From IMG/VR virus record IMGVR_UViG_2671180543_000010: a stretch of 16,137 nt of DNA, one strand, 5' to 3'. This document shows, piece by piece, positions 9,141 to 9,166 of the stretch (the first letter of the stretch is position 1; every line of letters begins with the position of its first letter). The notes beneath the pieces are model-generated. The model was not told the origin of the DNA. It saw only the letters and a program-made list of their open reading frames with translations, and did not search any database. This DNA comes from a virus. Its lineage: Duplodnaviria > Heunggongvirae > Uroviricota > Caudoviricetes. A program made the translations under genes and the position numbers.

Positions 9141-9166
9141 GAACAACCACGAACAAATAATTTACA
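9141..9166. promoter_or_regulatory. Three GAACAA repeats at 10-bp period (box ACAACGTGGAACAA) about 225 bp upstream of the capsid gene, adjacent to a TATTTT -10-like element on the minus strand
   Basis: Direct reading; on the minus strand reads TTGTTCgtggTTGTTCcacgTTGTTC followed 16 nt later by TATTTT. Candidate activator-dependent late promoter. Confidence 0.5.

What the first reader, a model, noticed from the sequence alone, without database searches (positions are those of the whole stretch)
9141..9166. Shared ACAACGTG(G/C)AACAA box with 10-bp-phased AACAA repeats at three places in the island
The same 14-bp box followed by extra AACAA half-sites at exact helical spacing occurs at 1580-1604 (island end near phoQ), 9141-9166 (upstream of the capsid operon, next to a -10-like TATTTT) and 14816-14860 (int 3' flank, inverted orientation, five repeats). 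A single island- or helper-encoded DNA-binding protein probably recognises all three. The AlpA/Vis-type regulator is the obvious candidate, since this family binds phased direct repeats both at att arms and at promoters.
Basis: seen in the sequence. Interest (0 to 1): 0.7.

Follow-up and report, generated by a model that had tools for sequence, protein, structure and literature searches.

The report
Phased GAACAA operator arrays in a satellite island
A capsid-forming phage satellite next to phoQ carries the same short DNA word, repeated once per helical turn, at its ends and in front of its regulator and capsid genes; this is most likely the unmapped binding site of the island's AlpA master switch.

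Summary
ACAACGTG(G/C)AACAA is exact at 1581-1594, 9133-9146 and 14846-14859(-). Each copy sits in an array of (S)GAACAA units spaced 10 bp apart, which dinucleotide shuffles never reproduce. The finding's 9141-9166 starts 8 nt after the box.

The window is a capsid-forming PICI (EcCIEDL933-like) at the same phoQ/roxA site as EcCICFT073. Two more clusters lie just outside the window, upstream of int.

The arrays are conserved. 56 of 57 islands with this AlpA type have one 272-295 nt upstream of alpA, with variable spacers and 3-6 units. The capsid-upstream array is a ~40-nt conserved block between unalignable flanks, and persists down to 57% capsid identity.

Two binders are excluded:
- The replicase: separate ori iterons covary with it.
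- The integrase arm domain: a different doubled motif (ACTACACC x2, as in P4 attP) covaries with Int, while the arrays do not.

The best remaining binder is the 62-aa winged-helix AlpA. Published work shows it activates its own promoter and is sufficient for excision.

No binding data exist. The arrays are identical across three AlpA alleles. A host or helper factor is not excluded. This is a new member of a known kind: a dual-purpose excisionase/regulator operator, as for Apl, Cox and Vis.

The parts
1460..1469 (.). Probable att core AAATATGTCC. It overlaps the phoQ stop codon (TAA 1459-1461) and marks the left junction of the island.
   Evidence: The same 10-mer recurs at the other island end in L001 and L004. 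Homology with islands at other sites starts at about 1489.
1542..1561 (+). Doubled motif ACTACACC-N4-ACTACACC, the probable integrase arm-type site of the P' arm, about 85 bp from the core.
   Evidence: Exact only here in the window, and again upstream of int in L001/L004. It changes with the Int clade: CTGACCACACA x2 in L009, GCAATACACA x2 in L028, GGGGGTA x2 in EcCIMP1. P4 has the same architecture, annotated as attP arm repeats. Its geometry matches the HE-PICI doubled motif at 81/132 bp (PMC10111431).
1578..1604 (+). Array 1 (P' arm): GAAACAA, GGAACAA, GACACAA, with ACAA cores exactly 10 bp apart.
   Evidence: It follows the doubled motif in every related island arm examined.
9131..9177 (-). 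Array 2, upstream of the capsid/packaging operon. It has three perfect GAACAA units (9131-9156), then TACAA and AACAA. On the strand transcribed into the capsid operon it reads TTGTTC.
   Evidence: The block TTTTGTAAATTATTTGTTCGTGGTTGTTCCASGTTGTTC is conserved between two lineages whose flanks cannot be aligned (A1). It is present with AlpA types A, B and C and with three replicase types.
9084..9111 (-). Predicted weak late promoter: -35 TTTACC (9111-9106), 16-nt spacer, -10 TATTCT (9089-9084). This places the three perfect TTGTTC units at roughly -55 to -80 (about -90 with the conserved TACAA unit).
   Evidence: Inferred from alignment A1. The L003 lineage has TTTACA-16-TATGTT at the same columns. 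The consensus scan found no strong sigma-70 promoter here. No transcription start is known.
9180..9197 (-). Intrinsic terminator ending the upstream (early) operon, immediately before array 2.
   Evidence: An identical copy lies at 9543-9560.
14816..14868 (-). Array 3, just 3' of int and 283-335 nt upstream of the alpA start. It has five in-phase units (TTGTTC x2, TTGTTG x2, TTGTAT) plus one out-of-phase TGTTCG. On the alpA sense strand it reads GAACAA.
   Evidence: 56 of 57 A-type loci fetched by AlpA similarity have it 272-295 nt from alpA, in 14 sequence variants with 3-6 units. EcCICFT073 has 6 units.
14567..14602 (-). Tentative fourth, degenerate array on the alpA sense strand: GACACAA, GACACAT, AACGCAA, GAACACG, about 10 bp apart. 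It overlaps a predicted alpA promoter.
   Evidence: Read. The same array, clearer, is in EcCICFT073 and L003. The predicted promoter is TTGCCA-17-CACAAT at 14623-14595.
14345..14533 (-). alpA: a 62-aa PF05930 winged-helix regulator and the candidate binder.
   Evidence: Pfam E=5e-18. It differs at 4 of 62 residues from the EcCICFT073 AlpA, which is the same protein accession as in L003.
14908..16137 (-). int: tyrosine integrase with an Arm-DNA-bind_3 N-terminal domain.

Best explanation
The AACAA boxes are arrays of a 10-bp unit (consensus S-G-A-A-C-A-A plus 3 variable bases). They form the operator of a small winged-helix protein that binds head-to-tail, one protomer per helical turn. The most likely protein is the island's own AlpA.

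Proposed sequence of events:
1. When a helper phage raises alpA expression, AlpA coats the arrays.
2. At both att arms, beside the doubled integrase arm-type sites, it acts as recombination directionality factor for excision.
3. At the array(s) upstream of alpA it mediates the known positive autoregulation.
4. At the array just upstream of a weak promoter it switches on the island's own capsid/packaging operon.

Shown here: the arrays, their phasing, their positions, their conservation, and their independence from replicase and integrase type.
Shown by others: AlpA activates PalpA, and AlpA is necessary and sufficient for excision.
Inferred: that AlpA is the binder, that it forms a filament, and that the capsid operon is AlpA-activated.
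For: 1. The arrays are non-random and phased. In 31 unique arrays (121 units) the spacing is 10 bp in 84 of 90 steps. Positions -3 to -1 are S/G/A, while positions +4 to +7 vary.
2. Purifying selection acts on the units, not on the spacers. There are 14 variants at a fixed distance from alpA in 56 of 57 loci, and one variant gained exactly one 10-bp unit. The capsid-upstream block is conserved between unalignable flanks and persists at 64% and 57% capsid identity.
3. Not the replicase. L003 has a RepA-type helicase but keeps all the sites. Distinct ori iterons covary with the replicase: GGTAGA with the window/EcCICFT073 type, GGTGAACAG with the L010 type.
4. Not the Int arm domain. The doubled motif changes with Int in three comparisons, while the arrays stay the same. 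L007 and L009 have the same AlpA recognition helix but different Int and a different doubled motif.
5. AlpA is PF05930. R21, R24, E28 and the wing GxxSVGW are invariant or nearly so across the A, B and C alleles, so a shared specificity is plausible.
6. EcCICFT073 has the same AlpA type and a 6-unit array. There AlpA activates PalpA, and AlpA overexpression alone gives int- and pri-dependent excision and replication (PMC6092414). In Vibrio PICMI, AlpA is sufficient for excision and is TorI/Xis-like (PMC10803314).
7. RDF sites are typically direct repeats one helical turn apart, at att and at promoters (PMC7498355; PMC11963761).
8. EcCIMP1 has a divergent AlpA and lacks the arrays.
Against: - No binding experiment exists. 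No AlpA-DNA study for PICIs was found in the paper library.
- The arrays are identical in islands with AlpA alleles that are only 56-68% identical. A conserved host or helper factor would also explain this.
- B-type islands carry an allele-linked AATATC x4 array exactly where A-type islands carry AACAA. That could be the true AlpA-B site.
- AlpA did not change Pint-lacZ in EcCICFT073, although arrays flank the int promoter region.
- Array 3 lies about 230-280 bp upstream of the only conserved promoter-like element for alpA. That is far for a classical activator.
- RDF sites on both att arms are unusual.
Confidence: 0.55

Rival explanations
1. The arrays are bound by a protein encoded outside the island. 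This would be a host nucleoid or response-regulator-type protein, or a helper-phage protein, possibly the unknown factor through which helper phages induce alpA. AlpA would act elsewhere, for example on the allele-linked AATATC/GATATC motifs.
For: - The arrays are invariant across AlpA alleles A, B and C, across Int clades, and across all replication and 'Bro-zone' modules.
- B-type and related islands have AATATC arrays or GTGATATCAC palindromes upstream of alpA that track the AlpA type.
- Helper phages induce alpA independently of AlpA in EcCIMP1 (PMC11773190).
- AlpA has no effect on Pint.
Against: - AlpA overexpression in a non-lysogen is sufficient for excision and replication, so no helper protein is needed for the recombination role at the arms.
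- No such cluster was seen in the chromosomal flanks that were scanned.
- EcCIMP1 lives in the same host species and lacks the arrays.
- No recalled E. coli factor consensus (IHF, Fis, PhoP, CRP, DnaA) fits SGAACAA. This was not tested.
Confidence: 0.22
2. The arrays are integrase arm-type sites bound by the N-terminal Arm-DNA-bind_3 domain of Int. The internal copies let Int regulate alpA and the capsid operon.
For: - Arrays lie on both att arms at conserved positions.
- Int is present in all array-bearing islands.
- The Int N-domain is fairly conserved, >=65%.
Against: - A different doubled motif occupies the positions, and has the 12-bp tandem layout, of the annotated P4 arm repeats. That motif covaries with the Int clade, while the arrays do not.
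- One arm domain has one specificity, and that specificity demonstrably changed between the window-type and L009-type Int.
- Int arm sites are not expected at two internal promoters.
- The capsid-upstream array persists with a 41%-identical Int.
Confidence: 0.06
3. The arrays are replication iterons for the D5-type primase/helicase, like the P4 ori/crr type I repeats, which sit at two distant loci.
For: - P4 alpha protein binds octamer iterons at ori and at crr, 4.5 kb apart (annotation).
- The window encodes a D5-type primase.
Against: - L003 and L007 have a RepA-family helicase instead, yet keep the arrays.
- A separate iteron set lies directly 3' of the primase gene (GGTAGA, 10504-10529 and 10589-10609). 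It is shared with the experimentally defined EcCICFT073 ori position and changes with the replicase type.
Confidence: 0.02
4. No protein reads the sequence. The phased repeats are intrinsically curved DNA that helps intasome folding and promoter activity, or they are copies of one duplicated segment.
For: - 10-bp phasing is what static bends need.
- Sites 1 and 2 share 35-38 nt at 71-77% identity, which suggests common ancestry (families D1 and D5).
Against: - AACAA is not an A-tract.
- Conservation is concentrated on S-G-A-ACAA, with free spacers.
- Arrays with entirely different spacers keep the core.
- Both features are signatures of base-specific recognition.
Confidence: 0.05

Closest known systems
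Coliphage 186 Apl and P2 Cox (dual-purpose excisionase/transcriptional regulators)
   Same: Small DNA-binding proteins whose sites are direct repeats one helical turn apart. The sites occur both in the att arm and at promoters, so excision and the transcriptional switch are coupled (PMC7498355; PMC11963761).
   Different: Apl and Cox act mainly as repressors at the early-promoter switch, and they bind one att arm. Here the arrays are on both arms. They also sit upstream of promoters that are, or are inferred to be, activated. Binding is not demonstrated.
Satellite phage P4 Vis, with the P4 attP architecture
   Same: Vis is annotated as 'excisionase and transcriptional regulator' and is a distant AlpA relative. 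P4 attP has doubled 12-bp Int arm repeats on each side of the core. A 10-bp-phased short repeat (CGGA x4) lies next to the int-proximal pair. This is the same layout as the ACTACACC pair plus GAACAA array.
   Different: The motifs differ (ATGCCCCC and CGGA in P4). I could not read the Vis footprinting papers, so calling the P4 CGGA array a Vis site is my inference. P4 has no capsid operon of its own.
AlpA of EcCICFT073 and EcCIEDL933 (Gram-negative PICI master regulator)
   Same: Same protein type, with 4 of 62 residues different. Same att site as EcCICFT073 and the same int-alpA array. AlpA activates PalpA, and it is required and sufficient for induction (PMC6092414; bioRxiv 10.1101/2022.09.08.507074).
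   Different: Those papers do not define an AlpA binding site. EcCICFT073 has no array upstream of its lambda-like capsid operon. That site is specific to the capsid-forming module.
Doubled attP motif of helper-embedded PICIs (Tommasini, Mageeney and Williams 2023)
   Same: A tandem doubled motif occurs twice in attP, 81 and 132 bp from the centre. The window's ACTACACC pair sits at about 85 bp, and at about 136 bp in L004.
   Different: That motif corresponds to the pair motif, not to the AACAA arrays. The authors reported not finding it in other PICI clades. Here each Int clade has its own version.
Lambda Xis, BldC and RdfS winged-helix filaments
   Same: Head-to-tail cooperative binding with about one DNA turn per protomer on tandem direct repeats.
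   Different: Only the fold family is shared (PF05930/MerR-like wHTH). AlpA oligomerisation has not been tested.

Membership tests
RDF/regulator operator (Apl, Cox, Vis, Xis type) | Tandem direct repeats spaced one helical turn apart | tested here: met
   Spacing is 10 bp in 84 of 90 unit steps over 31 unique arrays. Shuffles give none.
RDF/regulator operator (Apl, Cox, Vis, Xis type) | Sites lie in an att arm next to integrase arm-type sites | tested here: met
   The array starts 17-18 nt after the doubled motif on both arms. On the P arm a second cluster lies about 20-50 bp from the core.
RDF/regulator operator (Apl, Cox, Vis, Xis type) | The same sites occur at promoters controlled by the RDF | tested here: inconclusive
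   Arrays lie upstream of alpA, and PalpA is AlpA-activated in EcCICFT073. An array also lies upstream of the capsid operon. Which bases mediate activation is unknown, and the transcription starts are not mapped.
RDF/regulator operator (Apl, Cox, Vis, Xis type) | A cognate small wHTH/excisionase-family protein is encoded in the element | tested here: met
   AlpA is PF05930 with E=5e-18. The nearest solved structure is 8C3T, 'AlpA family phage regulatory protein'.
RDF/regulator operator (Apl, Cox, Vis, Xis type) | Demonstrated binding of the protein to the repeats | not testable with these tools
   This needs EMSA, footprinting or ChIP. No published data were found.
Integrase arm-type sites | The sequence covaries with the integrase N-terminal domain | tested here: not met
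   The arrays are unchanged between window-type and L009-type Int, while the doubled motif changes. The capsid-upstream array persists with a 41%-identical Int.
Integrase arm-type sites | Confined to attP arms | tested here: not met
   Two internal sites lie about 7.7 kb and 13.4 kb from the left junction.
Replication-origin iterons (PICI ori; P4 ori/crr) | Adjacent to the replicase gene and covarying with it | tested here: not met
   Separate iterons lie 3' of pri and covary with the replicase. The arrays survive replicase replacement.
Lambda CII-type activator site (TTGC-N6-TTGC) | TTGC-N6-TTGC straddling the -35 on the sense strand | tested here: not met
   TTGCTCATTGTTGC occurs in the window's array 3, but on the antisense strand for alpA. 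It is absent from the EcCICFT073 and L003 arrays.
Pseudomonas aeruginosa AlpA antiterminator / AlpA-binding element | A Q-like protein (DNA-contact residues up to position 142) binding GGGACG between -35 and -10, with a downstream terminator bypassed | tested here: not met
   It is a different, larger protein with a different element (PMC9371919). The island's AlpA is a 62-aa PF05930 protein.

The most novel reading that the evidence does not exclude
The arrays are not read by AlpA. They are read by a host- or helper-phage-encoded protein that is the long-sought trigger of Gram-negative PICI induction. In that case one external signal would act directly on the same DNA word at both att arms, at the alpA control region and at the satellite's own capsid promoter. 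The operator would be shared by islands with different AlpA, Int and replicase modules.
Probability: 0.15. Interest if true: 0.8.

Novelty: new member of a known kind. Interest (0 to 1): 0.5.

Why it matters
AlpA is the master switch of Gram-negative phage-inducible chromosomal islands, including the capsid-forming ones that build their own heads. No DNA target for it was found in the literature I could search.

These arrays give a concrete, mutable candidate operator. They also predict that one protein couples three events: excision, its own amplification, and expression of the satellite's capsid/packaging genes.

The analysis also separates two kinds of att-arm repeat:
- a doubled motif that tracks the integrase clade, extending a motif so far reported only for helper-embedded PICIs;
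- the arrays, which do not track the integrase.

This tells experimenters which oligonucleotides to test with which protein. The general principle, an excisionase-type protein using phased direct repeats at att and at promoters, is already known from 186, P2, P4 and ICE systems.

Tried and rejected
- Replicase iterons (P4 ori/crr analogy): rejected. The arrays survive replacement of the D5 primase by a RepA helicase, and distinct ori iterons covary with the replicase.
- Integrase arm-type sites: rejected. The doubled ACTACACC-type motif, not the arrays, follows the Int clade, and it matches the P4 arm-repeat layout.
- P. aeruginosa AlpA antiterminator model, despite the terminators at 9180-9197 and 9543-9560: rejected. 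That AlpA is an unrelated, larger Q-like protein.
- Lambda CII TTGC-N6-TTGC: present in the window's array 3 only by coincidence. It is on the wrong strand and not conserved.
- Other island proteins as binder: DUF4222 covaries with the replicase. PerC, SSB and the 248-aa ORF are not conserved among array-bearing islands. Icd-like is also present in EcCIMP1, which lacks arrays.
- Rfam: no RNA family in the window.

Low-yield searches:
- The genome-contig scan with AlpA gave 3 loci.
- The protein search gave 19 close homologues.
- The paper search for PDB code 8C3T found nothing relevant.
- Loci with 65-74% AlpA-like proteins (L311-L322) have a different int-ORF-alpA layout and did not separate AlpA from other binders.

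The census of capsid-upstream arrays among L011-L130 is biased, because those loci were fetched with the array pattern itself. Only 3 independently fetched loci reach the capsid gene. All 3 have the array, one of them degenerate.

Full report
**What the window is**

All island genes run on the minus strand:
- int (16137-14908; Arm-DNA-bind_3 plus Phage_integrase);
- alpA (14533-14345; PF05930);
- small ORFs, then DUF4222 and a D5-type primase/helicase (12371-10623), then more small ORFs;
- a complete HK97-type head and packaging module: capsid, prohead protease, portal, head completion, HNH, TerS and TerL.

phoQ occupies 1-1461 on the plus strand. This is a capsid-forming phage-inducible chromosomal island (cf-PICI) of the EcCIEDL933 kind (bioRxiv 10.1101/2022.09.08.507074).

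Related islands sit between phoQ and roxA in many E. coli genomes. That includes EcCICFT073 itself. Others lie in tqsA, in yifB, at clpS/cspD or at thiM/rcnR.

A Shigella flexneri locus, L004, is 99.99% identical to window 5538-16137. It supplies the sequence just beyond the window end.

The probable att core is AAATATGTCC (1460-1469). It overlaps the phoQ stop codon and recurs at the far end of the island.

**The observation**

ACAACGTG(G/C)AACAA is exact at 1581-1594(+), 9133-9146(+) and 14846-14859(-). With two degenerate neighbours that gives 5 matches at <=2 mismatches, against 0.28 expected.

Each box is two units of a longer array with ACAA cores 10 bp apart:
- three units at 1578-1604;
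- five at 9131-9177;
- five in-phase units plus one out-of-phase at 14816-14868.

A motif-blind scan for any 5-mer recurring three or more times at 9-11 bp finds four regions in the window, against 0.21 in shuffles. Two of them are these arrays. None of 200 shuffles produced even one AACAA or TTGTT chain. The other two regions are the ori iterons and an unexplained GTCAC array.

The finding's coordinates for the middle site are shifted by 8 nt. Otherwise the description is accurate.

Upstream of int, outside the window, every relative has two further clusters in the same orientation. In L004 they read CTACAACGTGAAACAAGCTGGAACAAGG and, nearer the core, TGAACAATCTGAAACATTATGAAACGG.

Both att arms also carry a second, different repeat. 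This is a tandem doubled motif, TTRACTACACCATTAACTACACC (window 1542-1561), which occurs nowhere else in the window. Every island arm with this pair is followed by an AACAA array.

A degenerate array of GACACAA-like units also lies just upstream of the alpA ribosome-binding site (about 14567-14602). It overlaps a conserved promoter-like TTGCCA-17-CACAAT.

**Conservation**

From 31 unique arrays (121 units) the unit is S-G-A-ACAA followed by variable bases. Spacing is 10 bp in 84 of 90 steps.

Among loci fetched by AlpA similarity only, 56 of 57 A-type islands have the array 272-295 nt upstream of alpA. There are 14 sequence variants with 3-6 units, and one variant has gained exactly one 10-bp unit.

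Upstream of the capsid operon, two lineages have unalignable terminators and leaders. They still share the block TTTTGTAAATTATTTGTTCGTGGTTGTTCCASGTTGTTC (alignment A1). The block recurs next to capsids of 64% identity, and in degenerate form at 57% identity.

In both lineages a weak promoter-like element follows at the same columns:
- window: -35 TTTACC (9111-9106), 16-nt spacer, -10 TATTCT (9089-9084);
- L003 type: TTTACA-16-TATGTT.

This puts the three perfect units at roughly -55 to -80, extending to about -90 with the conserved TACAA unit. It is an inference, because no transcription start is known. The consensus scan finds no strong sigma-70 promoter here. It does find a terminator immediately upstream, at 9197-9180.

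Classical PICIs with a lambda-like capsid operon (EcCICFT073, L008, L010) have no array at that position.

**Who binds: exclusions**

*Replicase.* L003 and L007 carry a RepA-family helicase instead of the D5 primase, yet keep the arrays. Separate iterons lie directly 3' of the replicase gene, where Fillol-Salom et al. located the PICI ori. These iterons change with the replicase type: GGTAGA in the window and EcCICFT073, GGTGAACAG (P4-like) in L010, L008, L068 and L096.

*Integrase arm domain.* The doubled motif has the layout of the annotated P4 attP arm repeats. In P4, tandem 12-bp ATGCCCCC pairs lie on each side of the core. The window's pair also matches the geometry of the doubled motif reported for helper-embedded PICIs, 81 and 132 bp from the attP centre (PMC10111431). 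Here the distances are about 85 and about 136 bp.

The doubled motif changes with the Int clade:
- ACTACACC with Int N-domains >=85% identical to the window's;
- CTGACCACACA in L009;
- GCAATACACA in L028;
- GGGGGTA in EcCIMP1.

L007 and L009 have an identical AlpA recognition helix but different Int and a different doubled motif. So the pair tracks Int, not AlpA. The arrays are unchanged between these Int clades, so the same arm domain cannot be reading them.

*Other island proteins.* None is conserved across all array-bearing islands and absent from the array-less EcCIMP1.

**Who binds: the candidate**

AlpA is a 62-aa PF05930 winged-helix protein. It differs at 4 of 62 residues from the AlpA of EcCICFT073. 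Published results for that island (PMC6092414):
- AlpA activates its own promoter region, which contains a six-unit array.
- AlpA is required for induction and transfer.
- When overexpressed without a helper, AlpA causes int- and pri-dependent excision and runaway replication.

In Vibrio PICMIs, AlpA is necessary and sufficient for excision and is modelled as TorI/Xis-like (PMC10803314).

Recombination directionality factors of this fold typically bind direct repeats one helical turn apart, at att sites and at promoters, and form higher-order complexes (PMC7498355; PMC11963761).

The arrays are the only repeat shared by the arms and the alpA control region. AlpA therefore needs sites in both places, and these fit.

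**Why the assignment is not secure**

- The arrays are the same in islands with AlpA alleles A, B and C, which are 56-68% identical. The likely DNA-reading residues (R21, S/T22, R24, an aromatic at 25, E28, and the GxxSVGW wing) are conserved. Shared specificity is therefore plausible. A conserved external factor would give the same pattern.
- B-type islands carry an AATATC x4 array next to the int stop codon, exactly where A-type islands carry AACAA. They have only a degenerate GAACA x4 array nearer alpA. Related islands have GTGATATCAC palindromes upstream of their alpA-like gene. I cannot explain these.
- AlpA had no effect on a Pint fusion in EcCICFT073, although arrays flank that promoter region.
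- Array 3 lies 230-280 bp from the conserved promoter-like element of alpA.

No AlpA-DNA binding study for PICIs was found.

**Comparison with known systems**

Functionally this looks like the Apl/Cox/Vis class. A small excisionase-type protein uses helically phased direct repeats, both to direct recombination at att and to control promoters.

P4 attP shows the same arrangement. A CGGA x4 phased array lies next to the int-proximal arm pair. Whether that array is the Vis site is my inference.

Differences here:
- arrays on both arms;
- probable activation rather than repression;
- a third target, the satellite's own capsid/packaging operon, specific to capsid-forming PICIs.

The P. aeruginosa 'AlpA' antiterminator is an unrelated protein and not a model.

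**Verdict**

The single-binder idea is well supported, and AlpA is the best candidate at about 0.55. The feature is a new member of a known kind. It has practical value as a testable operator for the PICI master regulator, so interest is moderate.

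Noticed in passing
window 8089-8091 (minus strand): The major capsid gene is split by an in-frame TGA where relatives have TGG (Trp276 of the 385-aa L001 protein). This copy of the island probably cannot make its own capsids.
   Followed up: yes
window 9176-9198 and 9539-9561: Two identical 23-nt terminator-containing repeats (AAAAAGCCGGATTGCTCCGGCTG) flank the 100-aa ORF 9217-9519 (phrog_1957, unknown function). The ORF looks like an inserted cassette between the early and late operons.
   Followed up: partly
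window 1973-2008; also L007 8172-8207 and L009 12983-13018: A separate 10-bp-phased array, GTCAC x4 (TGTCACGGTGTGTCACTGGTTGTCACTCTCCGTCAC), lies near the left end of the island. It is conserved even in degraded islands. Its function is unknown; it may be a packaging site or another regulator's site.
   Followed up: no
window 10380-10610: This is the probable ori. GGTAGA/TCTACC iterons in both orientations flank an AT-rich stretch directly 3' of the primase gene, with a DnaA-box-like TTATCCAC at about 10453-10460. The iteron sequence changes with the replicase type in relatives; the L010 type has P4-like GGTGAACAG.
   Followed up: partly
window 9007-9054: A 17-nt inverted repeat (94% complementary, 14-nt loop) lies in the leader of the capsid operon and has no following T-run. 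The other cf-PICI lineage has a different GC-rich structure at the same place. It may be a regulatory RNA structure or a protein site.
   Followed up: no
L010 16498-16545, L007 15832-15857, L096 1292-1317; L009 15091-15181, L311, L322: Islands with AlpA allele B have an AATATC x3-4 array at 10-bp phase next to the int stop codon, where A-type islands have AACAA. Related islands have two GTGATATCAC-type palindromes upstream of the alpA-like gene. The motif tracks the AlpA type, and its binder is unknown.
   Followed up: partly
window 1542-1561; L009 9852-9875 and 17240-17262; L028 8424-8446; L242 about 2275-2300 and 22000-22030; L241 3942-3965 and 4151-4174: Each integrase clade has its own tandem doubled arm motif: ACTACACC, CTGACCACACA, GCAATACACA, GGGGGTA, and ATGCCCCC in P4. 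They sit at similar distances from the core. This extends the motif published for helper-embedded PICIs, which was reported as absent from other PICIs.
   Followed up: partly
L241 (phage P4) about 3968-4010: CGGA recurs four times at 10-bp phase between the int-proximal arm-repeat pair and the attP core of P4. This mirrors the pair-plus-array layout of the island and is possibly the Vis site.
   Followed up: no
window 1-1469: The island junction overlaps the phoQ stop codon. The same att site is used by the non-capsid-forming EcCICFT073. Islands with different late modules therefore compete for one site.
   Followed up: partly
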